A stretch of DNA of 40,026 nucleotides from Chloroflexota bacterium (GTDB lineage Bacteria > Chloroflexota > Dehalococcoidia > DSTF01 > JACRBR01), in contig JACRBR010000354.1 of NCBI GenBank assembly GCA_016213125.1, forward strand, positions 1-40,026, given 5' to 3'. A program made the translations under genes and the position numbers. Positions 15,976-39,736 of this stretch are shown piece after piece. Position 1 is the first letter of the stretch, and each line of letters starts with the position of its first letter. Under the pieces are notes generated by a model. That model ran no database searches. It was not told where the DNA came from and worked only from the letters and a program-made list of their open reading frames with translations.

Positions 15976-18768
15976 GTGGCCACACTTCGGCCTGTCGCAG
16001 GCGCCGGAACCCACGACGCATCGGCCCAACCGTACCGCGACCAGCTCGCCTTCGACCGCTGGGGGTGGGGGAGCCACTGCGTCGACTGCTATCCAAGCAA
16101 CTGCCCCTACCGCGTCTATGTGAAGGACGGCGTCATTGTCCGCGAAGAACAGTCGGGCTCATTCGACGTGGTGGAGCCGGGCGTTCCCGACATGAACCCC
16201 ATGGGCTGCCAGAAGGGCGGCTCCTGGAGCAGGCTGCTGTACGGCGGCGAGCGCATTCTCCACCCGATGCGGCGCGCCGGCGAGCGAGGAGAGGGGCGAT
16301 GGACCCGCATCTCCTGGGACGAGGCGCTCACCGAGATCTCGGAGAAGATGCTCGACACGATCCAGCACGAGGGCCCGGAGAGCATCGTGCGCGTCGGTAC
16401 GCCGGGGCAGGGGGGTGCACAGAGCATCGCCCTTGGCGGCGCGATCTTCAACAAGCTGGGCTGCACGACCACGGACGTGCAGGGCGAGATCAACGACTGG
16501 AGTCCCGGCGTCTACGCGACGTTCGGCCGGTTTGACCCCTGCGCCAGCAACGACGACTGGTTCCACTCCGACGTTCTGGTCATCTGGGGAAACAATCCCG
16601 CCTACAGCGACATCCCCCTCTACCACTACATCACCGAAACCCGATACCACGGCGCGCAGGTGGTGGTGATCGCCCCCGACTTCAGTCCTTCGGCCGTGCA
16701 CGCCGACCTGTTCGCACCGGTGCGCATCGGGTCGGACGCCGCGCTGGCGCTGGCGATGTGCCGCGTCATCATCGACGAACATCTCATGGACCGGGGGTTC
16801 GTACGCGAGCAGACGGACCTGCCCCTGCTGGTCCGGCGGGACAACGGGAGATTCCTGCGCCAGTCCGACCTCATCGAGGGCGGCCGCGACGACATATTCC
16901 ATGTGTTCGACAAGACGGACCAGCGCGTGGCGGAAGCGCCTCGCACGCTCGACCTGGGCGCGCTGGTGCCCGCGCTCCAGGGGACGTTCACGGTGACGTT
17001 GAAGGACGGCGCTCAGGTGGACGTGAGCCCCGCGTTCGTGCTCCTGGTCGAGAAGCTCCGGGAGTTTCCTCCGGAAGCCGCTGCGGGCGTGTGTGGCGTC
17101 CACGCCGACGTCATCCGGCGCCTGGCGCGCATGGTCGCTGGCGGCAAGACACACATCCTGGACGGCTGGACGTTCGGGAAGTCCTACCACGGCGATCTCA
17201 TCGAACGTGCGATGTGCCTGGTGCTGGCGCTGACCGGCAACTGGGGGAAGCAGGGCGCGGGAATCCGCAGCTGGGCGGTGGGGATGTTCGACGGGATGTT
17301 CACCTGGTCCGCAAAGGCCAAACCCGGGGTGGAGGCGGCCCGCCAGATGCAGGCCGGGCTCAACGCCATGACGGCTGGCGCGCTCGAGCAGGACCCAACG
17401 CTGACCGAGGAACTCATCGTGCACGAGATGGGGTATCGCGGCGCGGCGATGGGCGGCAACGTGCCCCCGGCATTCTTCTGGTTCAACCACTGCGGTTACC
17501 GGGAGATCTGGGACCGGCCCGGCTGGGGCGATCCGGCGATGAAGCGGACCCTGTCGGAGTACGTGAAGGAGGCCATCGACCGCGGCTGGTGGGGCGGCGC
17601 GCAGTACCCGGCGCCGGACTCCTCTCCGCGGGTGCTGTTCGAGATCGGCGGTAACCTGCTACGCCGGCAGCGCGGGGGGCAGCAGCAGTTGTTGAAGCAC
17701 CTCTGGCCGAAGCTGGAACTCGTCGTCTCGCTCGACGTACGCATGACGACGACAGGCCTGTGGTCAGACATCGTCCTGCCCGCCGCCCATCACTACGAGA
17801 AGCCGAACTTCCCCTACACGACGCCGGATGTGATGAACCTCACACTCTCCGACCGGGTGGTGGAGCCGCCCGACGACGTCAAGAGTGAATGGCAGTTCAC
17901 GCAGGCGCTGGCAAACAAGCTTTCGGAGCGCGCGGTCGCGCGCGGCTTCACGTCGTTCCAGTCGCGGCTTGGCATGCCGGTCCGGCTCGATAACCTTTAC
18001 AACGAGATCACAAAGGACGGGCACTACGCCGAGGACGACACCGTCATCAATGAGATGGTGATCGACTCCGCGGCAGCGGGAACGCTGCCGGAGGAGACGA
18101 CGCTGGAGACGCTTCGTGAGACCGGGTACGTGCGCTTCACCGCGTGGGGCCGGTCGCCCATGGCGCTCGCGCAGGCATCAGACCTCAAGCCGCATGAGAC
18201 GCATTCGCCGTTCCGCTGGCAAACCGAGAAGAAGCAGCCGTTCCCCACGCTGACGCGGCGCGCCCAGTTCTACATCGATCACGACTGGTTCCTGGAGGCC
18301 GGCGAAGAGCTGCCCACGCATAAGGAGCCACCATGGCAGGGTGGCGACTACCCGCTGGAGATCACGGGCGGGCATCCCCGCTGGAGCGCGAACTCAACGA
18401 ACATGACCAACCGGATCATCCTGAACACGCATCGAGGCAAGCCGACCGTATACGTGAACGACCGCGACGCCGTCGCGCGTGGGATCGTTGATGGCGACGA
18501 TATCCGCGTCTTCAACGACGTCTCGGAGGCCTTCGTCGAGGCGCGCGTGACTCCATCCGTCCGCCCGGGTCAGCTGATCATGTACAACGGGTTCGAGCCA
18601 TACCAGTTCGAGGGTTGGCGCGACACGGCGAACGTCGAGCCTGGGATGGTGAAGTGGCTGCACTTCGCGGGCGGATACGGCCACCTGCGCTACCGCGCCA
18701 TTCACTGGCAGCCGGTGCCCATCGACCGTGGTGTGCACGCGAACATCGAACTCGCACATTCCCGCTGA
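15976..18768 (+). CDS. Type-II DMSO-reductase-family molybdopterin oxidoreductase, catalytic alpha subunit (paralog A; no Tat signal)
   Basis: ORF track 15850..18768. GTG 15976 lies 5 nt after GAAGGAA. FS0 motif WGSHCVDCYPSNCPYRVYVKDG. Blocks EINDWSPG, REQTDLPLLVR, YHGDLIER...ALTGNWG, TLTRRAQFYIDHDWFLEAGE and GGYGHLRY. Monocistronic. Confidence 0.92.
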   Translation: MATLRPVAGAGTHDASAQPYRDQLAFDRWGWGSHCVDCYPSNCPYRVYVKDGVIVREEQSGSFDVVEPGVPDMNPMGCQKGGSWSRLLYGGERILHPMRRAGERGEGRWTRISWDEALTEISEKMLDTIQHEGPESIVRVGTPGQGGAQSIALGGAIFNKLGCTTTDVQGEINDWSPGVYATFGRFDPCASNDDWFHSDVLVIWGNNPAYSDIPLYHYITETRYHGAQVVVIAPDFSPSAVHADLFAPVRIGSDAALALAMCRVIIDEHLMDRGFVREQTDLPLLVRRDNGRFLRQSDLIEGGRDDIFHVFDKTDQRVAEAPRTLDLGALVPALQGTFTVTLKDGAQVDVSPAFVLLVEKLREFPPEAAAGVCGVHADVIRRLARMVAGGKTHILDGWTFGKSYHGDLIERAMCLVLALTGNWGKQGAGIRSWAVGMFDGMFTWSAKAKPGVEAARQMQAGLNAMTAGALEQDPTLTEELIVHEMGYRGAAMGGNVPPAFFWFNHCGYREIWDRPGWGDPAMKRTLSEYVKEAIDRGWWGGAQYPAPDSSPRVLFEIGGNLLRRQRGGQQQLLKHLWPKLELVVSLDVRMTTTGLWSDIVLPAAHHYEKPNFPYTTPDVMNLTLSDRVVEPPDDVKSEWQFTQALANKLSERAVARGFTSFQSRLGMPVRLDNLYNEITKDGHYAEDDTVINEMVIDSAAAGTLPEETTLETLRETGYVRFTAWGRSPMALAQASDLKPHETHSPFRWQTEKKQPFPTLTRRAQFYIDHDWFLEAGEELPTHKEPPWQGGDYPLEITGGHPRWSANSTNMTNRIILNTHRGKPTVYVNDRDAVARGIVDGDDIRVFNDVSEAFVEARVTPSVRPGQLIMYNGFEPYQFEGWRDTANVEPGMVKWLHFAGGYGHLRYRAIHWQPVPIDRGVHANIELAHSR

Positions 18769-18825
18769 CGAAGCGGAGCCAGCCTGCCGATTGAAGCAGC
18801 AAGTGCGACATTCGGAGACAGAGAG

Positions 18826-18849
18826 CGGGCGCCCCTCGCGAGGCGCCCG
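18826..18849. terminator. Bidirectional hairpin between convergent alpha-A and alpha-B
   Basis: 8-bp stem CGGGCGCC / GGCGCCCG with an 8-nt loop, in the 115-nt gap between the two stops. Confidence 0.5.
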
Positions 18850-18883: not shown

Positions 18884-21673
18884 TTAGGCGGTGACCTTTC
18901 GCACATCGGCCCTGGTGCCGCGGCAGGCCGGAGCAGGCTGCCACTGGTTGGGCCAGTACTTCAGGTGGCCGTAGCCGCCTGCCAGGTGGAGCCACTTGAT
19001 CATGCCCGGCTCGATGTCCGAGGGGCCGTCCCAACTCGGGAACTGGTACGGCTCCCAGCCGTTGTACATGATGATCTGCCCCGGCCTCGCCGAAGGCGAA
19101 AGCTTCAGCGGTGTGCGGTACGAGCCCATGTCGTTGAACACCTCGACCACTTCATTGTCGAAGACGTCCCGGGCTGCCGCGTCCGAGGGGTTCATGATGA
19201 GGTGCGGCTCCCCACGGTGAGTCTGCAGCATCATCTTGTTTACGATGTTCGCCGAGTGGACGCTCCAGCGGTTGTGCCCGCTGGTGATCAACAGCGGATA
19301 GTCCCCGCCGGACTTCGGCGGGTCCTTGTGGCGCGGCAGCTGCTCGTCGGCCTCAAAGAACCAGTCGTGATCGATGTAGAACTGCGCCCGCCGCGTCAGC
19401 GTCGGGTACGGGAACTTCTTCTCTACGTGGTGGCGAAGCGGCGCGAAGGTGCTGTCGGCCTCGATGTCGCTGGCCTGGCCGAGCGCCCGCGCGTTCATGC
19501 CAAGCCCGGTGAAGCGAATGAATCCCTTCTCGCGCACCGTCTCCAGACTCGATCCTTCAGGCAGCGCACCGGTAATGATCGTGTCCTTGATCATCTCGTC
19601 GGCCAGGTCGTCCTCGGTGGCGTACGCATCGTTACAGGAGTAGCGCTCGTACAGGTCGTCGAGGCGACGCTCGACGCCGGTGGCGTCCTTGTAGGTCACG
19701 AAGCCCCGGGCCTTCGCCCGCGCGGCGACGGCCTTCGAGAGCAGGCCGAATATTTCCAGCTCGTTCTTCGCCTCGTCGATGGGTGGGATCACCTTGTCGC
19801 AGAAGGTCAGGTTCAGGGTGTGCGTGCTGGGAATGCCAAAACTGATCTTCTCGTACTGCGCGGCGATGGGCAGAACGTAGTCCGAGTGCAGCGCCGTCGC
19901 GCTCATCCGGTAGTCCATCGTGGCGATCGTCGTGAGCTTTGGCCATAGGTTCGTGAGCAGCATCTTCCTGCCGCCGCGCGTCCGCCGCAGCGCGTTGCCC
20001 CCGCACTCGATGAATACGCGCGGCTCCGGGTTCTTCGCGGGGACACCGGCCCACCAGCCCTTCTCCAGCGACTCGTTGTAATAGTCGTCGAAGGGACGCG
20101 GCATCTCTGCGTCGTTCCAGTCGGCGCGGTTCCACGTCTTGTCGTAGCCGGCGTGGTTGTACCAGAGGAAGACGGGCGGCACCCACCCGGTCTTACCACC
20201 GTTGGACGAGCGCTTGGTGAACTCGATGGTGGCCATCTCCTGGGTCATCGTTGGGTCTTCGGCGCGCACACCCCCCACGAAGCCCTGGTAGCCGTTGTAC
20301 AGCATCTTCGTCATCTCGGGGCCGGCGGCTGGCTTGGCGGCGGCCATCAGCCAGCCGTCGAACAGCGCGGCGAGCCATGCTTGCACGCCGGTGCCCTTCT
20401 TGCCCCAGTTGCCGGTCAGCGCCAGCAGCAGCAACTGCGCCCGCTCGATGAGGTCGCCGTGGTAGTACTTGCCGGCGTTGTTCAGGCTGCCCAGCGTCTT
20501 GGTGCGGCCGTGGGCCACCTTGCGCGCGATCTCGCGGATCGTGGCGGGGTCGATGCCACACATCGGACCGGCCTTTTCCGCCGTGTAATCGGCGAGCCGC
20601 GGGACGACGCGATCGTACACCGGGCGCGCCGTGACGGTCGTGCCATCCTTTAGCTGCACCTTGACCGACCCGGTGAGAGCGGGATCGACGTCACCCGAGG
20701 CGAGCGTGTCGCGCGGCGCAGGAGCGATCTTCCCCGTGCGCGCGTCCAGCCAGAAGAACTGCTCGGCGTGTCCGTCCTCGCGCAGGTCGCTCTCGACGAG
20801 GAAGCGCTCATTGTCCTCGCGCACAAGGATCGGAAGGTCGGTCTGCTCCTTGACGAACGCCTCGTCCACCAGCCCCTCTTCGACGACGGTGGCAGCCATG
20901 CCAAGGGCCAGCGCGGCGTCAGTGCCCGGCTTCACCGGCAGGTAGTAGTCCGCGTGCATGGCGGAGGGCGAGTAGTCCGGCGCGACGGTTACCACGGTTG
21001 CGCCGCGGTAGCGGGCCTCGGTGATGTAATGCTGGTGAGGGATCCGCGTGTACGCCGGGTTCGAGAACCAGATGAAGAACACGTCGGCGTGGAACCAGTC
21101 GTCGATGCTGCTCACCGGGTCGAACTTCCCGTAGGTCAGGTAATGTCCGGGCGAGAAGTCGTTCATCTCGGCGTTCAGGTCGGTTGTCAGGCCGCCGATC
21201 AGGCCGTAGAAGCGGGTCCGCCCGGTGACGCCCCAGGTGCTCATATTGCAGCCCGAGAGCGCGATCATCGATTCCGGCCCTTGGTCGATGATGCCGTCGA
21301 TGATGCCGTCCGCGATCTCCTCGCAGGCCTGCTGCCAGGAGATTCGCTCCCACTTTCCGGAGCCTCGCTCGCCCACGCGCCGGGCGGGGAAGTGCAGGCG
21401 CTCGCCCCCGGAGATGGTGGAACTCCAACCGGCGCCCTTCTGGCAGCCCATGGGGTTCATGTCGGGGACACCGGCTTCGATGACCGGCATGACGCCGGCC
21501 TGCTCCTCCCAGACGATCTCACCGTCGCGCGTGTACACGCGATACGGGCAGTTGCCGGGGTAGCAGTCGATGCAGTGGCTGCCCCACACTACGCGGTCGT
21601 AGGAGAAGCGATCACGATACTTTGACTCGGTCGCCTGGCGGCCGAGGTCGGTGACTAGGGTCTGCGCAGGCAT
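18884..21673 (-). CDS. Type-II DMSO-reductase-family molybdopterin oxidoreductase, alpha subunit (paralog B; no Tat signal)
   Basis: ORF track, 929 aa. WGSHCIDCYPGNCPYRVYTRDG, EMNDFSPG, KEQTDLPILVR, YYHGDLIER...ALTGNWG, TLTRRAQFYIDHDWFFEADE and GGYGHLKY. Monocistronic. Confidence 0.92.
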   Translation of the reverse strand: MPAQTLVTDLGRQATESKYRDRFSYDRVVWGSHCIDCYPGNCPYRVYTRDGEIVWEEQAGVMPVIEAGVPDMNPMGCQKGAGWSSTISGGERLHFPARRVGERGSGKWERISWQQACEEIADGIIDGIIDQGPESMIALSGCNMSTWGVTGRTRFYGLIGGLTTDLNAEMNDFSPGHYLTYGKFDPVSSIDDWFHADVFFIWFSNPAYTRIPHQHYITEARYRGATVVTVAPDYSPSAMHADYYLPVKPGTDAALALGMAATVVEEGLVDEAFVKEQTDLPILVREDNERFLVESDLREDGHAEQFFWLDARTGKIAPAPRDTLASGDVDPALTGSVKVQLKDGTTVTARPVYDRVVPRLADYTAEKAGPMCGIDPATIREIARKVAHGRTKTLGSLNNAGKYYHGDLIERAQLLLLALTGNWGKKGTGVQAWLAALFDGWLMAAAKPAAGPEMTKMLYNGYQGFVGGVRAEDPTMTQEMATIEFTKRSSNGGKTGWVPPVFLWYNHAGYDKTWNRADWNDAEMPRPFDDYYNESLEKGWWAGVPAKNPEPRVFIECGGNALRRTRGGRKMLLTNLWPKLTTIATMDYRMSATALHSDYVLPIAAQYEKISFGIPSTHTLNLTFCDKVIPPIDEAKNELEIFGLLSKAVAARAKARGFVTYKDATGVERRLDDLYERYSCNDAYATEDDLADEMIKDTIITGALPEGSSLETVREKGFIRFTGLGMNARALGQASDIEADSTFAPLRHHVEKKFPYPTLTRRAQFYIDHDWFFEADEQLPRHKDPPKSGGDYPLLITSGHNRWSVHSANIVNKMMLQTHRGEPHLIMNPSDAAARDVFDNEVVEVFNDMGSYRTPLKLSPSARPGQIIMYNGWEPYQFPSWDGPSDIEPGMIKWLHLAGGYGHLKYWPNQWQPAPACRGTRADVRKVTA

Positions 21674-21848: not shown

Positions 21849-22964
21849 GTGACGCAAGTGATTCGCATCATCGGGCGGTCGGGTTCCGGCAAGACGACGC
21901 TACTGTGCGAAGTGGTGCGTTTCCTTGCGGATGCCGGTCTGCGCATCGCCGTGTTCAAGCACGCGCACCATCGTGTCGATCTCGATCGGAAGGGGAAGGA
22001 CTCCTTCCGCTTCGCCGAGGCCGGCGCCGCGTTCGTGACCGTCGTCTCGCCGGAGAAGGTCGCGGCATTCGAGGCTGTCACGAGCGGCGAGCCGACGCTG
22101 GAGGAGTTGCAGGCCCGTGTGCCCGCCGGGATCGTCCTGATCCTGACAGTGGGGTTCCATGCAGGAGAACCGCCCTACTTCCTGCTGCTTGGAGCGGAGA
22201 CAGAGCCGGACGAGCGCGCGCATCACGGCGAGCTGCTGGGCGTTATCGGCCGCCGCACCGGGTCCGGGACCGCCGCGATGTTCGACAGGGCCGACGCGGC
22301 CGGTGTCGCGCGCGCCATCCTGGCGCATGTCGGCCGGCGCGCAGCAGCCACACCGGACGAGCGGCTGAACGCGCTCCTGCGAGAGGCGAAGGCATATCAC
22401 GGGCACCTGTGCCCCGGGCAGTTGCTGGGTGTGCGCCTGGCGGTCCTGGGTTGCCGCGCCGTCGGCATCGAAGAGCCTCGCACCTCCAAGAAGCTGATCG
22501 TGTGGGTGGAGACGGATCGTTGTGGTACGGACGCGGTGCAGACGGTCACCGGATGCAAGCTGGGCAAGCGCTCGCTCAAGTTCGTGGACAACGGCAAGCT
22601 GGCCGCGACCTTCCTGAATACAGAGACGGGCGAGGCGGTGCGCGTGCTGGCTCGCGCGGACTCTCGCGAAAAGGCCGCCGCCGCGTACCCGAACCTCGAG
22701 CGGCACGCGGCGCAGATGGAGGCCTACCGCCTGTTGCCGGACGAAGCGCTGTTTGCCACGGAACCTGTACAGGTGACGCTGGGTGAGTTGGATCGGCCGG
22801 GCAAGCCGCAGATTCGGGTGACCTGCACCGCCTGCGGGGAAGAGGTGAGCGACGGGCGCCACGTGCAAGGCGACGATGGCCCACTGTGCCGTTCCTGCGC
22901 CGGCGGTGCCTATTACGTGGCGCTGGGCAGCAGCGGCGATGTGAAGTCGGAGGCGCGATGGTAA
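21849..22964 (+). CDS. MobB (MGD biosynthesis adapter, P-loop) fused to an FmdE-like domain with C-terminal zinc ribbon
   Basis: In frame with ORF 21651..22964. GTG 21849 is chosen because MobB proteins begin just before the P-loop (weak RBS, so the start is uncertain). MobB part: IIGRSGSGKTTL...VFKHAHH...KGKDSFRFAEAGA. FmdE part: YHGHLCPGQLLGVRL...ETDRCGTDAVQ...CTACGEEV...CRSC. Confidence 0.8.
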   Translation: MTQVIRIIGRSGSGKTTLLCEVVRFLADAGLRIAVFKHAHHRVDLDRKGKDSFRFAEAGAAFVTVVSPEKVAAFEAVTSGEPTLEELQARVPAGIVLILTVGFHAGEPPYFLLLGAETEPDERAHHGELLGVIGRRTGSGTAAMFDRADAAGVARAILAHVGRRAAATPDERLNALLREAKAYHGHLCPGQLLGVRLAVLGCRAVGIEEPRTSKKLIVWVETDRCGTDAVQTVTGCKLGKRSLKFVDNGKLAATFLNTETGEAVRVLARADSREKAAAAYPNLERHAAQMEAYRLLPDEALFATEPVQVTLGELDRPGKPQIRVTCTACGEEVSDGRHVQGDDGPLCRSCAGGAYYVALGSSGDVKSEARW

Positions 22965-23611
22965 CCGCAGTCCGTGTCTCGGCATCAGACGACGCTCTGC
23001 TCAATCCGGAAGGAAGCGGCTGGCGTGGGATCGGCCTTGAGCGTATCGAGCTGACCCCGACGCCCATCGTCCTCCAGCCGTCGGAGTACGTCCAGAATAA
23101 GTGGGAGCCCCTGGGCCACGGCGCGACGCCGGAGGTCCGGGTGGCGGCCGCGCACAACGGGACGGCCATCTTCTTCAGGATGGAATGGGACGACCCCACC
23201 GACAACAGCCAGCCGAACGACATGGCCGATTTCCCGGACCAGGCTGGTGTCATGATGCCGGTCAAGCAGGACGCGCCGATCACGGAAATGGGCCTCCCCG
23301 ATCAGCCCGTCAACATGTGGCTGTGGCGCCCCGATATGGAAGCGCCTCTGTATGTGACCTCGACGGGACGCGGCACCTCAGTTCGCCAGCCCGATACCCC
23401 GCTCTCGGGCTCGGGCATTTGGAGCGACGGGGTCTGGCGCGTGGTGGTTTCACGGCCCTTCAACGTGTCAATGCCGGCGGGCATCGTGGTCCCGCTCGCC
23501 CCAGGTGTCAGCCACAAGTGCACCTTCGCCGTCTGGCAGGGTGCGGCCAAGGAGCGCGGCGGACTCAAAGCCTTTCAGGCAACCTGGCAGCCGCTGGAGG
23601 TAGAACGATGA
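22958..23611 (+). CDS. EB_dh-type gamma subunit (heme-b subunit of type-II DMSOR enzymes), paralog 1, no signal peptide
   Basis: ATG 22958 follows GGAGG and overlaps the upstream stop (ATGGTAA). VRVAAAHNGTAIFFRMEWDD, FPDQAGVMMPV and WQGAAKERGGLKAFQATWQPL resemble EbdC/DdhC/SerC-type subunits. Confidence 0.8.
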   Translation: MVTAVRVSASDDALLNPEGSGWRGIGLERIELTPTPIVLQPSEYVQNKWEPLGHGATPEVRVAAAHNGTAIFFRMEWDDPTDNSQPNDMADFPDQAGVMMPVKQDAPITEMGLPDQPVNMWLWRPDMEAPLYVTSTGRGTSVRQPDTPLSGSGIWSDGVWRVVVSRPFNVSMPAGIVVPLAPGVSHKCTFAVWQGAAKERGGLKAFQATWQPLEVER

Positions 23612-35535: not shown

Positions 35536-36596
35536 TGAAGGTCAACCTCGTCGCGGTTCAGGCAAAGCCCGTCATTTCGGACTACGCCGATGCCGAGTCC
35601 TTCTACCGCAAGATGGCCAGCCTGATGGACCAGGCCGCGAGCAAGGTCGACTTCTCGCAGCCGACGCTCGTCGTCTTCCCGGAAGGGATCGGTCTGCCGC
35701 TGGCATTCGTCCCGCAGACGTATGGTCAGTTCGGCGATGCGAAGACGATTGCCCGGGTGTTCATACGCGCCGTGCCGAAGAACCTCCCGCGGTTCCTGGG
35801 CGCCATCCTGAAGTACCGAACCTCCACGTTCCGGGCCGTGTTCCTCGAGACGGCCCTGGAGGCCGAAGACATCTACACCTCGACGTTCTCGACGCTGGCC
35901 CGCGAGCACGGTGTGTACCTGTGCGGAGGTTGCATCTATCTCCAGCACATAGAGGACGAGGCCGTAAAGGGTCGGCACATCGTCGGTCGGGCCGTGTACA
36001 ACCAGTCGTACCTCTTCAACCCTCAGGGCGTGTGCCTGCGGAGGACGCCGAAGATCAACCTTGCGCCGCCGACGGAGCCCCGGTTTGGCTTCAGCCCGGG
36101 TAATCGTTCCGATGTCATGCCCATCGACACCAAGATCGGTCGCCTCGGAACGCTGGTCTGCTACGACGCGTTTCACCGCAGCCTCATCGAACGCGTCGAC
36201 GCCATGGGCGTGGAGATCCTGATCAACCCTTCCCACAACGAACGCCGCTGGGAGGCCCGCGCCGGGTTCAACCCCGCCATCACCGTGGGCGAGGCGTGGA
36301 TGCAACACGGCCTGCCGACGATGATCCAGGGCCGCGAGCATCTCCGCTACGGCATCTCGCCCATGCTGGTAGGTCCCGTGTTCGATGTGAAGTCGCACGG
36401 GCAGTCGCGCATCTGCCGTAACCTTTCCCGGCCCGGTGCCGATCCGCACGAGTCGTTGCTCGCGGAGGCCGCCGTGGACGAAGAGGACATCATCTACGCG
36501 ACGGTCGAGGTGCGTGGGCATATCGGCACGAACGGCCATAATGCGACATCAGAGCTGCTCGATCACACGTTCATCGACCGCATACGGAGGGCGTGA
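35535..36596 (+). CDS. Carbon-nitrogen hydrolase (nitrilase superfamily) protein
   Basis: ATG 35535 overlaps the alpha-E TGA. Putative Glu-Lys-Cys triad in VVFPEG, RRTPKINL and GTLVCYDAF. Confidence 0.75.
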   Translation: MKVNLVAVQAKPVISDYADAESFYRKMASLMDQAASKVDFSQPTLVVFPEGIGLPLAFVPQTYGQFGDAKTIARVFIRAVPKNLPRFLGAILKYRTSTFRAVFLETALEAEDIYTSTFSTLAREHGVYLCGGCIYLQHIEDEAVKGRHIVGRAVYNQSYLFNPQGVCLRRTPKINLAPPTEPRFGFSPGNRSDVMPIDTKIGRLGTLVCYDAFHRSLIERVDAMGVEILINPSHNERRWEARAGFNPAITVGEAWMQHGLPTMIQGREHLRYGISPMLVGPVFDVKSHGQSRICRNLSRPGADPHESLLAEAAVDEEDIIYATVEVRGHIGTNGHNATSELLDHTFIDRIRRA

Positions 36597-37927
36597 TGGC
36601 TGTCCGCGCGACCACCGGCTGGCTGACCGCCCCGCCTCGACCCGCGGCGATGACGGAAACCCGCGCGCCCGGTGCGCTGGGTCAGGCGATGCTCTGGGGC
36701 GGCCTCTCGATGAGCCTCCTCGCGTTTGTGCCGGGTGCGTACCTCGTGCCGGCGCTGGGCTTGGGCGAAGCCATCACAATCGTGGTGCTCGGAAGCATCG
36801 CCGGGGCGGGCATGCTCGCGATGGTCGCGGCGCTCGCCGCGCGCCAGGGCAAGACGTCCGTTGGGTTGCTCTCATCGACACTTGGTATGCCGGCCGGCAC
36901 GACCCTTGCGGCCCTGCTGCTGTTGCGGCACACGCTCTGGGCGATCTTCGCGCTCACGTTCGCGGCGCGTGTCGCCACGAACGTCCCCACCCTGGGAGGA
37001 TCAACAGCCGTATGGGCGGTGGCGCTCGGCGCGCTGGCTCTGGCGCTGGCCCTGCTTCCCGCTCGGACGTTCGTGCAGGTGTGGATCGGCCGCTTCGCCT
37101 TCTGGGTCGGCCTGTTGGTCATCGCCCTGGTCACCGTGACGGGCGTGTTCACCTACGGCATCCCGATCCTGCACGACGCGGACGGCATGGGCGGCTGGCC
37201 GTCCCGGGCGCAAGGCTTCGACCTGATCGTCGCCCTGCCGTTGCTCTGGCTGCCCGTCGTCGCTGATTACGCAAAGGACGCCAGCTCTCCGAGGGCGGCC
37301 GCTATCGGCGCTGGAACCGGCGCCGGCGTCATGACGGCCTGGTACTGCATCGTTGGCGTGTTGTGGGTCTTTACAGTCAGCACGAGTGACGTCGCTGGAT
37401 TCATCACCGCGCTCCCCATCGGTGCTGCCGGACTCATCGTCGTCGTGGCGCTGGAATCGGACGCCGTGGCTGCGAACCTTTACGCTGCCTCGATGGCCGG
37501 AGGCCGGTTCGGGTACCGGTGGTTCCGCCCGGCGCTGCTTGCCACTGCGATGTTCGCCGGAGCGATCGTCGTCGCCACCGACGCCATCGACATCGAGGAT
37601 GCGCTCCAGACCCTCAGCATGATCTTCGTCCCGCTGTTCGCCGCCGTGCTCGTGCGGGGTGTGTTCTCGGTGACGCCGCGGTGGGCGGCGTGGACGGCCT
37701 GGATCGCCGGCGCCATGACCTACGGCTGGATAAGCCCCGGCGACTTCGGACCGTGGAAGGACGCCATGCACCTCTTCTTCGCGAAGATGTTCGACGCACC
37801 GTACCCGCTCGGCGATGAACTTACCTGGCTCCCGGCCACCGCTGCTGCCTTCGCGGTCTCCACAATGGTGTGCCTCACGGGGGCGTTGATCGCGTTGGCT
37901 ATTCGAGAGGGGGACGGCGATGGCTGA
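36596..37927 (+). CDS. Polytopic permease, NCS1 / purine-cytosine (CodB/CytX)-like
   Basis: ATG 36596 overlaps the hydrolase TGA, 5 nt after GGAGG. About 12 hydrophobic helices. The N-terminal WGGLSMSLLAFVPGAYL...ITIVVLGSIAGAGMLAMVA...GKTSVGLLSSTLG resembles the CodB family. Family assignment is by eye only. Confidence 0.6.
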   Translation: MAVRATTGWLTAPPRPAAMTETRAPGALGQAMLWGGLSMSLLAFVPGAYLVPALGLGEAITIVVLGSIAGAGMLAMVAALAARQGKTSVGLLSSTLGMPAGTTLAALLLLRHTLWAIFALTFAARVATNVPTLGGSTAVWAVALGALALALALLPARTFVQVWIGRFAFWVGLLVIALVTVTGVFTYGIPILHDADGMGGWPSRAQGFDLIVALPLLWLPVVADYAKDASSPRAAAIGAGTGAGVMTAWYCIVGVLWVFTVSTSDVAGFITALPIGAAGLIVVVALESDAVAANLYAASMAGGRFGYRWFRPALLATAMFAGAIVVATDAIDIEDALQTLSMIFVPLFAAVLVRGVFSVTPRWAAWTAWIAGAMTYGWISPGDFGPWKDAMHLFFAKMFDAPYPLGDELTWLPATAAAFAVSTMVCLTGALIALAIREGDGDG

Positions 37928-39071
37928 TCGAGCGCCAACACCTGAACGGCAGCTGGCTATGGTGTTCGACCTGAACAAGTGCCTCGGCTGCCAGACGTGC
38001 ACCATCGCCTGCAAGACCCTCTGGACGGACCAGGAGGGCATGGAACACATGTGGTGGAACGTGGTGAACACCCTGCCCGGCGCGGGCTCGCCACGTAACT
38101 GGATGGAGATCGCCGGCGGCTTTGGTGCGGACGAGAAGTCGAAGCCGAGCCAGTTGCCCACAAGCGAAGACTTCGGCGTGGCCTGGAACTACAACTACGA
38201 CGAAGTGTGGAACAGCGAGTCCAGCGTGCTGACAAAGGACCGCGAGGCCACGTGGGGTATGAACTGGGATGAAGACGAAGGCGACGGAGTGTGGCCGAAC
38301 AACTACTTCTTCTACCTGCCCCGCATCTGCATGCACTGTACGCGCCCGGCATGTCTTGAGGCCTGCCCGCGAACCGCGATCTACAAGCGCGAGGACAACG
38401 GCATCGTCCTCATCGACGAAGAGCGCTGCAACGGCTACCGCTTCTGCGCCGAGGCGTGTCCTTACAAGCGCATCTATTTCAACCCCGTGCGCAAGCTTTC
38501 GCAAAAGTGTGTGCTCTGCTTCGCCCGCGTCGAGCAGGGTGTCCCCCCGGCTTGCATGCGCCAGTGCCCCGGGCGCGTCCGCTTCTTCGGGTATCTGGAC
38601 GACGAAACGAGCGCCGTCTACAAGCTCGTGAAGAAATGGAAGGTGGCGATCCCGCTCCACCCGGAGTTCGGCACGCAGCCCAACCTGTTCTACGTGCCCC
38701 CACTGGCCCCGTCGCGCTTGCAGGAAAACGGAGATGTGGATGACGAACGGCCGCGCATCCCCGATGAGTACCTGGAATGGCTATTCGGTAAAGACGTTTG
38801 GCCGGCACTGGAGACATTGAAGGGCGAAATGGATAAGCGACGACGTGGTGAGTCTTCTGAACTTCTGGAGAACGTATGGCCTGCGCTCGGAGCCGTGAAG
38901 GGCGATACGGACGAGCGTCAGCCCGATGCGCCCTCCGAACTACTCGACATCCTCATCTCCTTCAAACACAAGGACATGTTCGGGGGGTTCGACCGCGACC
39001 CGGGCACGCTTGAACGCCAGCCCGGCCACGTGCCAGCGGGCGACCTGCAATCACCGCGGACCGGGGCGTAA
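37920..39071 (+). CDS. NarH/EbdB-like iron-sulfur beta subunit (paralog 2) with duplicated C-terminal segment
   Basis: ATG 37920 overlaps the permease end by 8 nt (ATGGCTGA). CLGCQTCTIAC, CMHCTRPACLEACP, CNGYRFCAEACP and CVLCFARVEQGVPPACMRQCP. Confidence 0.92.
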   Translation: MADRAPTPERQLAMVFDLNKCLGCQTCTIACKTLWTDQEGMEHMWWNVVNTLPGAGSPRNWMEIAGGFGADEKSKPSQLPTSEDFGVAWNYNYDEVWNSESSVLTKDREATWGMNWDEDEGDGVWPNNYFFYLPRICMHCTRPACLEACPRTAIYKREDNGIVLIDEERCNGYRFCAEACPYKRIYFNPVRKLSQKCVLCFARVEQGVPPACMRQCPGRVRFFGYLDDETSAVYKLVKKWKVAIPLHPEFGTQPNLFYVPPLAPSRLQENGDVDDERPRIPDEYLEWLFGKDVWPALETLKGEMDKRRRGESSELLENVWPALGAVKGDTDERQPDAPSELLDILISFKHKDMFGGFDRDPGTLERQPGHVPAGDLQSPRTGA

Positions 39072-39127
39072 CCGTGCGCCGCAACCCGATTCGACGTCCA
39101 TTGACCGCGACGTGCGAGCCGGTGACG

Positions 39128-39736
39128 CTACGGGTGCTGTGCGATAACGAACGCCTGTCTGGCCGTCGCGAGCTGCTCCCGACTGTTGACGTTGAAGAAC
39201 GATCGGAGCATGCCGTCTGCTTCCCGCAGCTGTTCTTCATCGATGTAGCAGACGCGCAGGTGGCGCAAGAATGCGCTCACGGCGAAGTCATCGCTGTTCA
39301 GCGCGCGCTCCAGCGCCGGAATGCACGTCTTGCGATACACCCCCAGCATCACATCGGGGCGGCCATCCACAACCGGAATAACCGCGTCATGGCCGTGCCG
39401 GCTGTCCAGCAGGAGCCGCAGCAGTTCTGGTTCGATGAACGGTGCATCGCACGGGATCACGATCGCGTACTCGGAGCGGGCGCACTGCAGGCCGGTGAAG
39501 ATGCCCGTCAGGGGTCCGCGGTCCGGGAGCAGATCTTCGCAGACGACCACCTGCACATCGGATCGAAGGGACGGCAGCGTCTGGTCCGGCGCGATGGTGA
39601 TGACCACTTCATCCACCATCGAGCCCAGCGCCGTGAGCGCGTACTGAAGCAGCGGCATCCCCGCCACCTCGACGGAAGGTTTGCTTCCACCGAGGCGCGA
39701 ACTGTATCCACCTGCGAGGACAACACCGGTCAGCAT
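39128..39736 (-). CDS. mobA: Molybdenum cofactor guanylyltransferase
   Basis: ORF track 39128..39895, with the start moved to MLTGVVLAGGYSSRLGG (ATG 39736). LAGGxxxR(L/M)G and VIPCDAPFI motifs. Confidence 0.85.
   Translation of the reverse strand: MLTGVVLAGGYSSRLGGSKPSVEVAGMPLLQYALTALGSMVDEVVITIAPDQTLPSLRSDVQVVVCEDLLPDRGPLTGIFTGLQCARSEYAIVIPCDAPFIEPELLRLLLDSRHGHDAVIPVVDGRPDVMLGVYRKTCIPALERALNSDDFAVSAFLRHLRVCYIDEEQLREADGMLRSFFNVNSREQLATARQAFVIAQHP

What the first reader, a model, noticed from the sequence alone, without database searches (positions are those of the whole stretch)
15976..39736. Five paralogous type-II Mo-bisPGD catalytic subunits in 24 kb, served by only two beta, two gamma and one delta subunit
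Five ~930-aa ORFs align over their full length: 15976-18768 (+), 18884-21673 (-), 24758-27541 (-), 27846-30722 (+) and 32620-35535 (+).

- Shared blocks are (R/K)EQTDLP(L/I)LVR, YHGDL(I/M)ER..ALTGN(W/F)G, TLTRRAQFYIDHDWF and GGYGHL.
- Each starts with an FS0-type His/Cys motif next to VY(V/T)KDG.
- Several features place them in the type-II clade (ethylbenzene DH, steroid C25 DH, p-cymene DH, SerA, DdhA, PcrA/ClrA) rather than NarG (~1240 aa with NarI). These are their length, an Asp in the xD(W/F/L)xxG block where NarG/EbdA carry the Mo-ligating Asp, and the neighbouring NarH-like beta, EB_dh gamma and NarJ-like delta genes.
- Stoichiometry is 5 alpha : 2 beta : 2 gamma : 1 delta. Alpha-A and alpha-B are monocistronic orphans.
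- Gene orders are non-canonical: alpha-gamma-beta in one unit, and mobB/fmdE-gamma-delta divergent from alpha in another.
- The only precedent I know for many alphas sharing few beta/gamma subunits is the steroid C25 dehydrogenase family of Sterolibacterium.
- No chlorite dismutase, nitrate/nitrite transporter, NarI or cytochrome gene is present to indicate oxyanion respiration.
- mobA, mobB and a delta chaperone are all in cis, so this looks like a self-contained maturation and enzyme island of unknown substrate range.
Basis: partly seen in the sequence, partly recalled or inferred. Interest (0 to 1): 0.85.

Follow-up and report, generated by a model that had tools for sequence, protein, structure and literature searches.

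The report
Five-paralogue molybdenum hydroxylase island, mostly cytoplasmic
A soil Chloroflexota genome fragment carries five old paralogues of the ethylbenzene-dehydrogenase-type molybdenum enzyme that must share two iron-sulfur subunits and two gamma subunits; four of the five lack an export signal, unlike every studied member of this enzyme group.

Summary
Five intact 927-971-aa Mo-bisPGD alpha genes sit at the stated coordinates. They come with 2 beta, 2 gamma (EB_dh), 1 delta chaperone, a MobB-FmdE fusion and MobA.

All five match EbdA (PDB 2ivf) far better than PcrA or NarG. They keep the Mo-ligating Asp, Lys450 and four FS0 ligands. They are only 34-43% identical to EbdA and lack its His192 and Asp485.

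They are old paralogues (37-61% identity) from three deep lineages, not a recent tandem burst. The island is syntenic in at least 12 species-level uncultured Dehalococcoidia/Chloroflexota MAGs.

- Only alpha-E has a Tat signal. Alpha-A, B, C and D and their large clades have none, and Tat was lost twice independently. All characterised EBDH-type hydroxylases are periplasmic.
- Gamma-2 has lost both haem-b axial ligands.
- Alpha-C is always paired with an SCP2-like lipid-binding protein.
- Alpha-E is translationally coupled to a CN-hydrolase, a CytX/NCS1-like permease and beta-2.
- The alpha-gamma-beta gene order is the Sterolibacterium order, so it is not unprecedented.

Verdict: a real, uncharacterised variant of a known enzyme kind. 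Substrates are unknown. Interest is moderate.

The parts
15976..18768 (+). alpha-A. Mo-bisPGD catalytic subunit, 930 aa, no Tat signal. Sister paralogue of alpha-D (61% identity).
   Evidence: Pfam; NCBIfam; identities; tree. It is present in only some related islands, always with the TPP enzyme and the alpha/beta hydrolase (L002, L022, L029; L023 has the hydrolase only).
18884..21673 (-). alpha-B. Catalytic subunit, 929 aa, no Tat signal. Convergent with alpha-A and divergent from the MobB-FmdE operon.
   Evidence: The ORF starts at the first start codon after a stop, so no upstream extension is possible. Orthologues are 78-93% identical in related MAGs.
21849..22964 (+). MobB (P-loop) - FmdE - C4 zinc-ribbon fusion protein. 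First gene of the maturation operon.
   Evidence: Pfam MobB 2e-28, FmdE 4e-32, zf-dskA_traR 2e-5. TIGR00176 mobB scores 88 bits, above its 76.2 cut-off. The GTG start at 21849 was read from the upstream sequence. The fusion is conserved in related loci.
22958..23611 (+). gamma-1. EB_dh haem-b subunit, 217 aa, no signal peptide. Both haem axial ligands are kept.
   Evidence: Pfam EB_dh 5e-26. It aligns with EbdC 2ivf_C residues 3-211, with Met108 and Lys201 conserved. Met/Lys is kept in 28 of 28 gamma-1-type sequences (window plus loci). It overlaps the upstream gene by 7 bp.
23608..24261 (+). delta. NarJ/TorD-type assembly chaperone, 217 aa. It is the only one on the contig.
   Evidence: Pfam Nitrate_red_del 4e-18. 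TIGR03482 scores 148.5 bits, just under its 152.3 cut-off. It overlaps gamma-1 by 4 bp.
24283..24735 (-). SCP2-like small protein, 150 aa, immediately downstream of alpha-C in the same transcription direction.
   Evidence: Pfam SCP2 E 5e-4, borderline. 17 of the 21 aligned sequences (window plus 20 orthologues) hit SCP2, best 2e-7. A profile search of PDB returned only SCP2 proteins, though weakly (E about 0.6). It is adjacent to alpha-C-type genes even in relatives about 62% identical in alpha-C.
24758..27541 (-). alpha-C. The most divergent catalytic subunit, 927 aa, no Tat signal, with an all-Cys FS0 motif (C-x4-C-x3-C).
   Evidence: It belongs to a separate deep clade outside EbdA plus the other four (bootstrap 100). 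Its nearest non-Chloroflexi relatives have Tat signals and His-type FS0.
27846..30722 (+). alpha-D. Catalytic subunit, 958 aa, no Tat signal. First gene of the alpha-D/gamma-2/beta-1 unit.
   Evidence: None of the 120 closest database homologues has a Tat signal. The ORF cannot be extended upstream.
30725..31363 (+). gamma-2. EB_dh-family subunit, 212 aa, with Leu and Arg at the positions of the haem ligands Met108 and Lys201.
   Evidence: Pfam EB_dh 3e-28. Of the 31 gamma-2-type sequences, 12 keep Met/Lys, and these include the more distant ones; among those at least 66% identical to the window's, 13 lack Met, Lys or both (9 Leu/Arg incl. the window's, 2 Phe/Arg, 2 Leu with the Lys column missing) and three keep Met/Lys.
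31374..32456 (+). beta-1. NarH/EbdB-type subunit with four Fe-S cluster motifs, 360 aa.
   Evidence: Pfam Fer4_11 3e-29. TIGR03478 scores 484.2 bits, above its 480.7 cut-off. All four Cys groups can be read in the sequence.
32620..35535 (+). alpha-E. Catalytic subunit, 971 aa, and the only one with a twin-arginine signal (MSRRLSRRTFLKGAGATAAAIGL).
   Evidence: Pfam TAT_signal 1.6e-5. TIGR03479 scores 981.6 against a 984.75 cut-off. All 17 alpha-E-type orthologues carry RRxFLK. It forms a Tat+ clade with bootstrap 100.
35532..36596 (+). Divergent carbon-nitrogen hydrolase (nitrilase superfamily), 354 aa, no signal peptide. It overlaps alpha-E by 4 bp.
   Evidence: Pfam CN_hydrolase 7e-18. Only weak hits to nitrilases in PDB. 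Conserved downstream of alpha-E-type genes.
36593..37927 (+). Polytopic membrane protein, 444 aa, CytX/NCS1-like permease.
   Evidence: TIGR02358 thia_cytX E 1.7e-26, below cut-off. No Pfam or PDB hit. It is found next to alpha-E-type genes in 14 of 17 loci. It overlaps both neighbouring genes.
37920..39071 (+). beta-2. Second four-cluster Fe-S subunit, 383 aa, last gene of the alpha-E unit.
   Evidence: Pfam Fer4_11 4e-31. TIGR03478 scores 494.5 bits, above its 480.7 cut-off. 52% identical to beta-1. In distant relatives this beta type sits in alpha-C/gamma-1/beta/delta units.
39128..39736 (-). MobA-like molybdenum cofactor guanylyltransferase, 202 aa.
   Evidence: Pfam NTP_transf_3 6e-36. 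TIGR02665 E 2e-30, 106 bits, below its 151.85 cut-off. Present in L001 and L004 but replaced by other genes in L003.
11882..15224 (.). TPP enzyme (11882-13660, -), small HesB/IscA-like ORF (about 13.9-14.26 kb, +) and alpha/beta hydrolase (14235-15224, +). The TPP enzyme and the hydrolase travel with alpha-A in related genomes. Possible pathway partners.
   Evidence: Pfam. In NCBIfam the TPP enzyme is nearest acetolactate synthase PRK05858 (431 bits) and 2-hydroxyacyl-CoA lyase (326 bits), both below cut-off. TPP-hydrolase-alpha-A synteny is seen in L002, L022 and L029.

Best explanation
The island encodes a modular set of ethylbenzene-dehydrogenase-type (type-II, Asp-ligated) Mo-bisPGD enzymes in an uncultured Chloroflexota bacterium, probably of the class Dehalococcoidia.

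Shown from sequence: each of the five alpha subunits keeps the Mo-binding Asp, the Lys that holds it monodentate, and an FS0 [4Fe-4S] site. Each therefore needs a four-cluster beta subunit to move electrons.

Inferred: with only two beta and two gamma genes and one delta chaperone on the contig, the alphas most likely assemble interchangeably on shared beta-gamma cores, as shown for the steroid C25/C26 dehydrogenases of Sterolibacterium. By analogy with EbDH, S25DH and S26DH, the likely chemistry is oxygen-independent, water-dependent hydroxylation or dehydrogenation of C-H bonds. Each paralogue would take a different substrate.

Shown from sequence, location inferred: alpha-A, B, C and D and both gammas and betas have no export signal, so those enzymes should work in the cytoplasm. 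Alpha-E has a conserved Tat signal and should be exported with hitch-hiking partners.

Substrate hints (inferred, weak):
- Alpha-C has an obligatory SCP2-like neighbour, which points to a lipid or isoprenoid-like substrate.
- Alpha-E is translationally coupled to a CN-hydrolase and a CytX/NCS1-like permease. This suggests an outside oxidation step, then uptake, then C-N cleavage of a nitrogen-containing compound.

MobB-FmdE, MobA and delta supply and insert the guanine dinucleotide cofactor in cis.
For: Family placement:
- EbdA is by far the best solved relative.
- NCBIfam top hits for alpha, beta, gamma and delta are the type-II and Ebd models.
- Asp223, Lys450 and the FS0 ligands are conserved in all five. 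PcrA has His at the Lys450 position. The role of Lys450 is described in PMC6153880.

Purifying selection on each paralogue:
- Orthologues are 74-95% identical across MAGs, while the paralogues differ at 37-61%.

Conservation:
- The same gene order is found in at least 12 species-level MAGs.

Excess of alphas:
- 142 alpha : 48 beta : 51 gamma : 31 delta over 75 loci.
- 18 of 65 alphas with at least 4 kb of flank on both sides have no beta or gamma within 4 kb.

Localisation:
- Tat is present in 17 of 17 alpha-E-type sequences.
- Tat is absent in 0 of 110 alpha-A/B/C/D-type sequences, 0 of 120 alpha-D homologues, 0 of 49 in the Tat-less clade and 0 of 16 in the alpha-C subclade.
- The EbdA clade is 41 of 41 Tat+.
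- No signal is seen on the beta or gamma subunits.

Operon structure:
- Start/stop overlaps of 4-8 bp link MobB-FmdE/gamma-1/delta and alpha-E/CN-hydrolase/permease/beta-2.

Precedent:
- Shared beta-gamma subunits are documented in PMC6016249 and PMC6153880.

SCP2:
-.
Against: - No substrate, activity or expression data exist. All relatives are uncultured MAGs.
- The contig is only 40 kb, so more beta or gamma genes may lie elsewhere. Sharing is therefore inferred, not shown.
- EbdA pocket residues His192 and Asp485 are not conserved in any of the five, so the chemistry could differ.
- Alpha-C branches outside EbdA plus the other four and has a PcrA-like TLTGRQQFYLDH block. It could sit nearer SerA, ClrA or DdhA, which I could not test.
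- No electron acceptor for a cytoplasmic haem-b complex is evident.
- Gamma-2 lacks both haem ligands.
- The neighbourhood survey gave only weak and mixed functional signals.
Confidence: 0.65

Rival explanations
1. Some or all of the enzymes, alpha-C and alpha-E especially, are not C-H hydroxylases. They could be oxyanion or chalcogen oxidoreductases of the same type-II family, such as selenate/chlorate reductase-like or dimethylsulfide dehydrogenase-like enzymes, or a cytoplasmic nitrate/nitrite-type enzyme.
For: - Alpha-C lies outside the EbdA-containing clade (bootstrap 100).
- Alpha-C has higher NarG (301 bits) and TIGR03479 (903 bits) scores and a lower EbdA-model score (601 bits) than alpha-A, B and D.
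- Alpha-C shares TLTGRQQFYLDH with PcrA.
- SerA, ClrA and DdhA could not be compared.
Against: - All five, alpha-C included, score higher to EbdA than to PcrA, NarG or NxrA.
- All five have Lys at EbdA position 450, where PcrA has His.
- No chlorite dismutase, NarI, NarK or cytochrome gene is on the contig or in the syntenic loci.
- Alpha-C is always paired with an SCP2-like lipid-binding protein. In distant relatives a CrtI-like FAD oxidoreductase is also present.
Confidence: 0.15
2. The island is specifically a sterol or hopanoid/isoprenoid side-chain degradation module, homologous in function to S25DH plus S26DH of Sterolibacterium. This is a narrower form of the main explanation.
For: - Multi-alpha/few-beta-gamma organisation and gamma-beta gene order match Sterolibacterium (PMC6016249, PMC7411048).
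- An SCP2 sterol-carrier-type partner accompanies alpha-C.
- JGI labels two homologues as 'steroid C-25 hydroxylase alpha subunit' (P0028; P0196).
- Like S25DH, none of the alphas has the EbdA His192 (PMC6153880).
- APH-family phosphotransferases, thiolases, acyl-CoA dehydrogenases and CrtI-like oxidoreductases occur near homologues in some loci.
- The 25-hydroxysteroid kinase is described as a phosphotransferase-family protein (PMC8449060).
Against: - None of those pathway genes is on this contig.
- The neighbour signals are sparse: 2-4 of 128 ORFs per family.
- The JGI labels are automatic.
- S25DH and S26DH are Tat-exported, whereas four of the five alphas here are not.
- The alpha-E unit, with a CN-hydrolase and a CytX-like permease, does not fit a sterol pathway.
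- No S25dA sequence was available for a direct comparison.
Confidence: 0.15
3. The apparent excess of alphas is an artefact of looking at one contig or of decaying duplicates. Each alpha either has its own beta-gamma pair elsewhere or is non-functional.
For: - Only 40 kb of the genome is seen.
- Related genomes carry further alpha genes on other contigs.
Against: - All five ORFs are intact with every cofactor ligand.
- Each has well-conserved orthologues (74-95% identity) in the same position in many MAGs.
- The alpha excess holds over 75 loci, at about 3:1:1.
- The same situation is experimentally established in Sterolibacterium (PMC6016249).
Confidence: 0.05

Closest known systems
Ethylbenzene dehydrogenase EbdABC(D) of Aromatoleum aromaticum (PDB 2ivf)
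   Same: - Best solved relative of all five alphas (708-795 bits in the two whole-protein PDB searches, alpha-E and alpha-B).
- Same alpha/beta/gamma/delta gene families.
- Same Mo-Asp, Lys450 and FS0 His/Cys ligands, and same four-cluster beta.
- Gamma-1 keeps the Met/Lys haem ligands.
- In EbdC, as here, gamma has no signal peptide of its own.
   Different: - Only 34-43% identical to EbdA.
- Far below the NCBIfam EbdA equivalog cut-off (601-852 bits against 2000).
- His192 and Asp485 are absent.
- The alphas fall in clades separate from the EbdA clade.
- Four of the five have no Tat signal, whereas EbDH is periplasmic.
- Gene order is alpha-gamma-beta, not alpha-beta-gamma-delta.
- Gamma-2 lacks the haem ligands.
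Steroid C25/C26 dehydrogenases (S25DH1-4, S26DH1, DH6-8) of Sterolibacterium denitrificans
   Same: - Many alpha paralogues (eight, 38-82% identical) with fewer beta/gamma genes and two chaperones.
- Sharing of beta-gamma between alphas is shown experimentally.
- Gamma-beta gene order.
- No His at the EbdA His192 position.
   Different: - All are Tat-exported periplasmic enzymes of a diderm betaproteobacterium.
- The paralogues are scattered over the genome rather than packed five in 24 kb.
- No MobB-FmdE, SCP2 or CN-hydrolase/permease partners are reported.
- Direct sequence relation was not tested here.
Putative alkane C2-methylene hydroxylase AhyABC (Desulfococcus oleovorans Hxd3) and 'ahyA' hits in metagenome surveys
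   Same: - Uncharacterised EBDH-like enzymes.
- Chloroflexota MAGs are already reported to carry multiple 'ahyA' genes (PMC13170169). The window genes would probably be labelled this way by such HMM surveys.
   Different: - AhyA function is itself only proposed.
- No reference sequence was available, so the relation is untested.
- The surveys did not describe the clustering, the missing Tat signals or the shared subunits.
Cytoplasmic NarGHJI nitrate reductase (with remnant Tat peptide on NarG)
   Same: - A type-II, Asp-ligated enzyme that works on the cytoplasmic side without Tat export and uses a NarJ-type chaperone.
- Alpha-C (TLRRLAANG) and alpha-D orthologues (ATRRTRQ) keep twin-arginine remnants without a hydrophobic stretch, as NarG is known to do. 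The NarG point is from my own knowledge.
   Different: - NarG is about 1240 aa, has a NarI membrane anchor and scores only 187-301 bits against these alphas.
- There is no NarI or nitrate/nitrite transporter here.
- The gamma here is of the soluble EB_dh type.
Perchlorate reductase PcrAB (PDB 4ydd)
   Same: Second-best solved relative (450-474 bits). Same family and Asp ligand.
   Different: - PcrA has His where all five alphas have Lys450.
- Lower score than EbdA for every alpha.
- No chlorite dismutase gene is present.

Membership tests
Mo/W-bisPGD (DMSO reductase/MopB) superfamily | Molybdopterin oxidoreductase domain plus C-terminal molybdopterin dinucleotide-binding domain | tested here: met
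   PF00384 and PF01568 are above gathering score in all five alphas.
Type-II (Asp-ligated, NarG/EbdA-like) subfamily | Asp ligand to Mo at the position of EbdA Asp223, PcrA Asp170 and NarG Asp222 | tested here: met
   Asp is aligned in all five.
Type-II (Asp-ligated, NarG/EbdA-like) subfamily | N-terminal FS0 [4Fe-4S] motif with a His/Cys first ligand plus three Cys | tested here: met
   H-x3-C-x4-C-x34-C in A, B, D and E. C-x4-C-x3-C-x34-C in C.
Type-II (Asp-ligated, NarG/EbdA-like) subfamily | Curated NCBIfam subfamily models for alpha (TIGR03479), beta (TIGR03478), gamma (TIGR03477) and delta (TIGR03482) passed at their cut-offs | tested here: inconclusive
   These are the top hits for every subunit. 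Only the betas pass (484 and 495 bits against 480.7). The alphas score 865-982 against 984.75, the gammas 135 and 147 against 169.85, and delta 148.5 against 152.3.
Ethylbenzene dehydrogenase (EbdA orthologues) | Equivalog-level similarity (NF042978 cut-off 2000 bits) and membership of the EbdA clade | tested here: not met
   Scores are 601-852 bits and identity is 34-43%. The EbdA clade (at least 50% identity, bootstrap 100) excludes all five.
Ethylbenzene dehydrogenase (EbdA orthologues) | Active-site His192 and Asp485 | tested here: not met
   Position 192 is Pro, Gly, Thr, Pro and Ser in A to E. Position 485 is Met, Leu, Leu, Met and Gln. These calls depend on the alignment.
EBDH-like water-dependent hydroxylases (EbDH, CmDH, S25DH, S26DH) | Lys (EbdA Lys450) hydrogen-bonded to the Mo-Asp | tested here: met
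   Lys is present in all five; PcrA has His. The role of this Lys is described in PMC6153880.
EBDH-like water-dependent hydroxylases (EbDH, CmDH, S25DH, S26DH) | Tat signal on alpha and periplasmic location | tested here: not met
   Only alpha-E has a Tat signal. A, B, C and D and their clades have none, and their ORFs cannot be extended upstream. All characterised members are Tat-exported (PMC7411048, PMC6016249).
EBDH-like water-dependent hydroxylases (EbDH, CmDH, S25DH, S26DH) | Gamma subunit binding haem b through Met and Lys | tested here: inconclusive
   Gamma-1 keeps Met and Lys. Gamma-2 has Leu and Arg at those positions.
EBDH-like water-dependent hydroxylases (EbDH, CmDH, S25DH, S26DH) | Demonstrated hydroxylation of a C-H bond with water | not testable with these tools
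   This needs enzyme assays.
Steroid C25/C26 dehydrogenase family (Sterolibacterium) | Phylogenetic grouping with S25dA1-8 | not testable with these tools
   No S25dA sequence is in PDB, NCBIfam or the named hits. The only link is automatic JGI labels on P0028 and P0196.
Steroid C25/C26 dehydrogenase family (Sterolibacterium) | Several alphas served by fewer beta/gamma subunits and one or two chaperones, with gamma-beta gene order | tested here: met
   5:2:2:1 on the contig, with an alpha-D/gamma-2/beta-1 order. Compare PMC6016249 and PMC6153880.
Respiratory nitrate reductase NarGHI / nitrite oxidoreductase | Alpha of about 1240 aa, a NarI/NxrC-type partner and equivalog score | tested here: not met
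   The alphas are 927-971 aa. The narG model scores 196-301 bits against a 1084 cut-off. NxrA scores 97-148 bits. No NarI gene is present.
Perchlorate/chlorate reductase systems | Closest similarity to PcrA or ClrA, with a chlorite dismutase gene nearby | tested here: not met
   PcrA scores lower than EbdA for all five. No cld gene is present. ClrA itself was not available.

The most novel reading that the evidence does not exclude
Chloroflexota, which are monoderm and have no periplasm, have moved EBDH-type molybdenum hydroxylases into the cytoplasm at least twice independently. The alpha-A/B/D clade and the alpha-C clade each arose from Tat-bearing ancestors.

They now run a plug-in system. 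One beta-gamma electron-transfer core, encoded between a cytoplasmic alpha (alpha-D) and an exported alpha (alpha-E), serves enzymes on both sides of the membrane. In one sublineage the gamma has even given up its haem.

This would be a large, unstudied toolkit for oxygen-independent hydroxylation in soil and sediment bacteria. Its substrates may include lipids or isoprenoids and nitrogen compounds. It would use an unknown cytoplasmic electron acceptor.
Probability: 0.35. Interest if true: 0.7.

Novelty: new variant of a known kind. Interest (0 to 1): 0.55.

Why it matters
EBDH-type enzymes are the only known catalysts that hydroxylate unactivated hydrocarbon and sterol side-chain carbons with water instead of O2. 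Fewer than ten have been studied, and all of those are periplasmic enzymes of Proteobacteria.

This island shows that abundant, uncultured soil Chloroflexota keep a conserved cluster of four to five deeply diverged versions. Most are predicted to be cytoplasmic, and the cluster carries its own cofactor-maturation genes.

If they are active hydroxylases:
- They would widen the known substrate range and cellular location of this chemistry.
- They would bear on how recalcitrant organic matter is attacked without oxygenases.
- They would offer new biocatalysts, following the use of S25DH for 25-hydroxyvitamin D3 synthesis.

The conserved operon partners (SCP2; CN-hydrolase plus permease) give concrete starting points for substrate screening.

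Tried and rejected
1. Placing the alphas against S25dA, CmdA, AhyA, SerA, DdhA and ClrA. No reference sequences could be reached. PDB holds only EbdA, PcrA, NarG and NxrA. NCBIfam has no models for them. A database search with EbdA returned no functionally named hits. I rebuilt EbdA and most of PcrA from PDB alignments and used those.

2. Moco riboswitch or other RNA elements. There were no Rfam hits at gathering score.

3. Promoter and terminator scans. Nothing above the shuffled expectation.

4. Neighbourhood enrichment to guess substrates. I took 128 non-island ORFs near homologous alphas. The result was mixed, with no family in more than 4 ORFs. The most recurrent cluster was a CrtI-like FAD oxidoreductase. 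These are suggestive only.

5. Naming the CN-hydrolase and the permease by solved structures. The hydrolase gave only weak nitrilase hits and the permease gave none.

6. Cupredoxin and WxL surface proteins upstream as electron acceptors for the exported enzyme. Rejected as part of the island because they are not syntenic in relatives.

7. Assembly duplication or recent tandem duplication. Rejected, because paralogue identity is 37-61% and the five fall in three deep clades.

8. Export by hitch-hiking on a Tat-bearing beta or gamma. Rejected, because no partner subunit has a Tat motif.

Structure prediction was not used. A single-chain model would not settle the substrate or the subunit pairing.

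Full report
**1. The observation**

The window is 65% G+C and is a complete 40,026-bp contig.
- alpha-A, 15976-18768 (+)
- alpha-B, 18884-21673 (-)
- alpha-C, 24758-27541 (-)
- alpha-D, 27846-30722 (+)
- alpha-E, 32620-35535 (+)

Each ORF has the Pfam Molybdopterin and Molydop_binding domains. They align over their full length at 37-61% identity. Alpha-A and alpha-D are the closest pair, and alpha-C is the most distant.

The quoted motifs are present with small deviations, mostly in alpha-C. The partner genes are as described:
- two NarH/EbdB-type betas, 52% identical to each other
- two EB_dh gammas, 35% identical to each other
- one NarJ/TorD-type delta
- a MobB-FmdE-zinc-ribbon fusion
- a MobA gene on the opposite strand at the right-hand end

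The 5:2:2:1 count is right for this contig.

**2. Family placement**

By sequence, EbdA (2ivf_A) is much the best solved relative. It scores 708-795 bits over the whole length, against 450-474 bits for PcrA, 187-237 for NarG and 97-148 for NxrA. NCBIfam ranks the type-II models first and the Ebd equivalogs second for alpha, beta, gamma and delta. Only the betas pass a curated cut-off. The alphas reach 601-852 bits on the EbdA equivalog, whose cut-off is 2000.

I rebuilt EbdA residues 63-975 and most of PcrA from the PDB alignments. The five alphas are 34-43% identical to EbdA. The alignment gives the following:
- The Mo-ligating Asp (EbdA Asp223) and Lys450 are conserved in all five. PcrA has His at the Lys450 position.
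- The FS0 ligands are complete. The motif is H-x3-C-x4-C-x34-C in A, B, D and E, and all-Cys C-x4-C-x3-C in C.
- EbdA His192 and Asp485 are not conserved in any of them. S25DH also lacks that His (PMC6153880).

Both betas show all four Cys groups.

**3. Origin and conservation**

The closest database proteins are 82-94% identical. They come from MAGs labelled Dehalococcoidia, Chloroflexota or Chloroflexia. More distant homologues (50-65%) occur in Binatia, Deltaproteobacteria/Myxococcota, Nitrospirae and Acidimicrobiia. All of them are uncultured.

The gene order alpha-B | MobB-FmdE, gamma-1, delta | SCP2, alpha-C | alpha-D, gamma-2, beta-1, alpha-E, CN-hydrolase, permease, beta-2 recurs in at least 12 species-level genomes. 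Alpha-A, together with a TPP enzyme and an alpha/beta hydrolase, is an add-on found in only some of them (L002, L022, L029).

Relatives at 62-65% identity carry a rearranged version (L014, L015, L019, L056). Its fullest form (L015, L056) reads SCP2, alpha-C, gamma-1-type, beta-2-type, delta, MobB-FmdE, alpha-D. In L014 and L015 this is followed by beta-1 and then alpha-E. In L018, L019 and L056 alpha-E follows alpha-D directly, with a permease and a CN-hydrolase after it. The ancestral modules therefore seem to be alpha-C/gamma/beta/delta and alpha-D/gamma/beta/alpha-E.

Each paralogue's orthologues are 74-95% identical across these genomes. That points to purifying selection on five distinct functions.

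**4. Phylogeny**

I built neighbour-joining trees with 100 bootstraps, rooted on PcrA. They used 134 and 148 sequences. The structure is consistent between them:
- Clade I (bootstrap 100) holds alpha-C and its homologues.
- Clade II (bootstrap 100) holds the EbdA clade (41 sequences, bootstrap 100) plus a group with bootstrap 87.
- That group consists of the alpha-E clade (18 sequences, bootstrap 100) and a clade of 49 sequences (bootstrap 100) that contains alpha-A plus alpha-D (sisters, bootstrap 100) and alpha-B.

The five genes therefore come from three deep lineages and are not a recent local expansion. It could not be tested for S25dA, CmdA, AhyA, SerA, ClrA or DdhA, because no reference sequences were reachable.

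**5.

Only alpha-E has a twin-arginine signal (SRRTFLK followed by a hydrophobic stretch; Pfam TAT_signal). All 17 alpha-E-type orthologues carry RRxFLK.

Alpha-A, B, C and D have none. For alpha-B and alpha-D the ORF begins at the first possible start after a stop codon. The wider counts agree:
- 0 of 110 alpha-A/B/C/D-type sequences from related loci have a Tat signal.
- 0 of 120 closest homologues of alpha-D have one.
- 0 of 49 in the tree's Tat-less clade and 0 of 16 in the alpha-C subclade have one.
- All 41 EbdA-clade sequences have one.
- The nearest outgroup of the alpha-C subclade is Tat+ in 21 of 22 sequences under the strict motif-plus-hydrophobic-stretch filter and has His-type FS0.

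Tat was therefore lost twice, and alpha-C also changed its first FS0 ligand from His to Cys.

Remnant twin-arginine stretches without a hydrophobic region remain. Alpha-C has TLRRLAANG, and alpha-D orthologues have ATRRTRQ. This resembles the remnant signal known for NarG (from my own knowledge). No beta or gamma subunit carries a signal. EbdC also has none, since the crystal chain and the NCBIfam model are both 214 residues.

All characterised EBDH-type hydroxylases are Tat-exported and periplasmic (PMC7411048, PMC6016249). That Chloroflexota are monoderm is established knowledge rather than something tested here. It makes a cytoplasmic relocation plausible.

**6. The gamma subunits**

Gamma-1 aligns with EbdC over its whole length and keeps the haem ligands Met108 and Lys201. 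All 28 gamma-1-type sequences, the window's included, do so too.

Gamma-2 has Leu and Arg at these columns. Of the 31 gamma-2-type sequences, 12 keep Met/Lys, and these include the more distant ones. Among those at least 66% identical to the window's gamma-2:
- nine have Leu/Arg (the window's included)
- two have Phe/Arg
- two have Leu with the Lys column missing from the extracted sequence
- three keep Met/Lys

In this sublineage, the gamma encoded between alpha-D and beta-1 has probably lost haem b. This is an alignment-based inference.

**7. Operon structure and accessory genes**

Start/stop overlaps of 4-8 bp join two units: MobB-FmdE/gamma-1/delta, and alpha-E/CN-hydrolase/permease/beta-2. 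Alpha-D, gamma-2 and beta-1 are separated by only 2 and 10 bp. Alpha-C is followed 22 bp later by the SCP2-like gene.

- The SCP2 assignment is borderline for the window protein (E 5e-4). It is supported by 17 of the 21 aligned sequences (window plus 20 orthologues; best 2e-7) and by SCP2-only, though weak, PDB profile hits.
- The permease is CytX/NCS1-like (TIGR02358, E 2e-26). It accompanies alpha-E-type genes in 14 of 17 loci.
- The CN-hydrolase is a divergent member of the nitrilase superfamily.
- MobA is conserved next to the island in some relatives but not all.

**8. Alpha excess as a general feature**

Over the 75 loci retrieved from species-representative genomes, I counted 142 alpha, 48 beta, 51 gamma and 31 delta genes. 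Of 65 alphas with at least 4 kb of flank on both sides, 18 have no beta or gamma within 4 kb.

The loci were selected for carrying an alpha, so the ratio is biased upward. Even so, solitary alphas are clearly common. Sterolibacterium is the experimental precedent: eight alphas at 38-82% identity, fewer beta/gamma genes, two chaperones, a gamma-beta gene order, and proven assembly of different alphas on the same beta-gamma pair (PMC6016249, PMC6153880, PMC7411048). The alpha-gamma-beta order is therefore not unprecedented.

**9. Most likely mechanism**

This is a modular set of EBDH-type Mo-bisPGD enzymes. The steps below are marked as shown or inferred.
- Shown from sequence: MobA and MobB-FmdE are cofactor-maturation gene types, delta is an assembly chaperone type, and each alpha has an FS0 site.
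- Inferred: MobA and MobB-FmdE make bis-PGD and delta inserts it. Each alpha docks through FS0 onto one of two betas. Gamma-1 (haem b) or gamma-2 (probably haem-free) completes the complex.
- Inferred by analogy: the chemistry is water-dependent hydroxylation or dehydrogenation of C-H bonds.
- Inferred from the absence of signals: four complexes act in the cytoplasm, and the alpha-E complex is exported.
- Weak hints: a lipid or isoprenoid-like substrate for alpha-C (SCP2, and CrtI-like FAD oxidoreductases beside such units in distant relatives), and a nitrogen-containing compound for alpha-E (permease plus CN-hydrolase).

A survey of 128 neighbouring ORFs gave only scattered signals. ETF and ABC-transporter permease (BPD_transp_1) domains each appeared four times. 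Thiolase, acyl-CoA dehydrogenase, APH phosphotransferase, HisKA_3 kinase and MarR each appeared three times.

The electron acceptor of the cytoplasmic complexes is unknown.

**10. Novelty and literature**

I found no paper that describes this island, the Tat-less clades or the gamma change. Metagenome surveys already note that Chloroflexota MAGs carry multiple 'ahyA' genes, which are EBDH-like HMM hits (PMC13170169). The existence of such genes is therefore not new.

I rate the finding as a new variant of a known kind. The family, the cofactor set and the many-alphas logic are known. The predicted cytoplasmic location, the compact five-paralogue island with its own maturation genes, the haem-ligand-less gamma and the specific accessory partners are new. 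Interest is moderate (0.55). The finding is real, conserved and testable, but it rests on sequence inference alone and the substrate is unknown.

Noticed in passing
window 3428-5489 (-) and 7994-11838 (+): This is a cluster of cupredoxin/plastocyanin-domain proteins (152 aa and 512 aa, the latter with several copper-binding domains) and three large proteins with WxL-type cell-surface domains. One of the WxL proteins also has a copper-binding domain. The cluster is not syntenic with the island in relatives.
   Followed up: partly
window 5613-7726 (+): A HisKA_3 histidine kinase and a LuxR-type response regulator lie here. The same kind of two-component pair recurs next to homologous alpha genes in other loci (L040, L041, L045, L052; a response regulator follows beta-2 in L003). 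It may be the regulator of these enzymes.
   Followed up: partly
window 15058-15597 (-): A MarR-family regulator ORF (Pfam E 3e-7) lies between the alpha/beta hydrolase and alpha-A. It overlaps the 3' end of the hydrolase gene by about 170 bp on the opposite strand. The related genome (L002) has only a 235-bp gap there and no such gene. MarR genes also occur near homologous alphas elsewhere (3 of 128 ORFs).
   Followed up: partly
window 11882-13660 (-): The TPP enzyme that travels with alpha-A scores nearest to acetolactate synthase PRK05858 (431 bits) and to actinobacterial 2-hydroxyacyl-CoA lyase (326 bits). Both scores are below cut-off. A 2-hydroxyacyl-CoA lyase would fit downstream processing of a hydroxylated branched acyl compound, but this was not examined further.
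   Followed up: no
window 27846-27960 and 27440-27541; P0003-P0007: The N-terminal extensions of the Tat-less alphas keep twin-arginine remnants without a hydrophobic core. Alpha-C has TLRRLAANG and alpha-D orthologues have ATRRTRQ. These may be remnant signal peptides that now serve only as the binding site for the delta chaperone.
   Followed up: partly
L015:948-2567, also L019, L026, L034, L044: A CrtI/amine-oxidase-like FAD oxidoreductase is the most recurrent non-island neighbour. Nine ORFs in seven loci form this cluster, and the L015 representative has FAD oxidoreductase domains. In L015 it lies directly beside the SCP2-like gene of an SCP2/alpha-C unit. It is absent from the window.
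   Followed up: partly
L002:698-4352: In the closest named assembly (GCA_040960215.1), a xanthine-dehydrogenase/CO-dehydrogenase-type molybdenum hydroxylase (MoCoBD, Fer2 and FAD subunits) and a ThiS-like gene lie about 5-9 kb upstream of alpha-A. The corresponding window region holds different genes.
   Followed up: no
window 37920-39071: Beta-2 has a C-terminal extension of about 25 residues relative to beta-1, with an internal near-repeat (VWPALETLKGEMDK ... VWPALGAVKGDTDE). Its significance is unknown.
   Followed up: no
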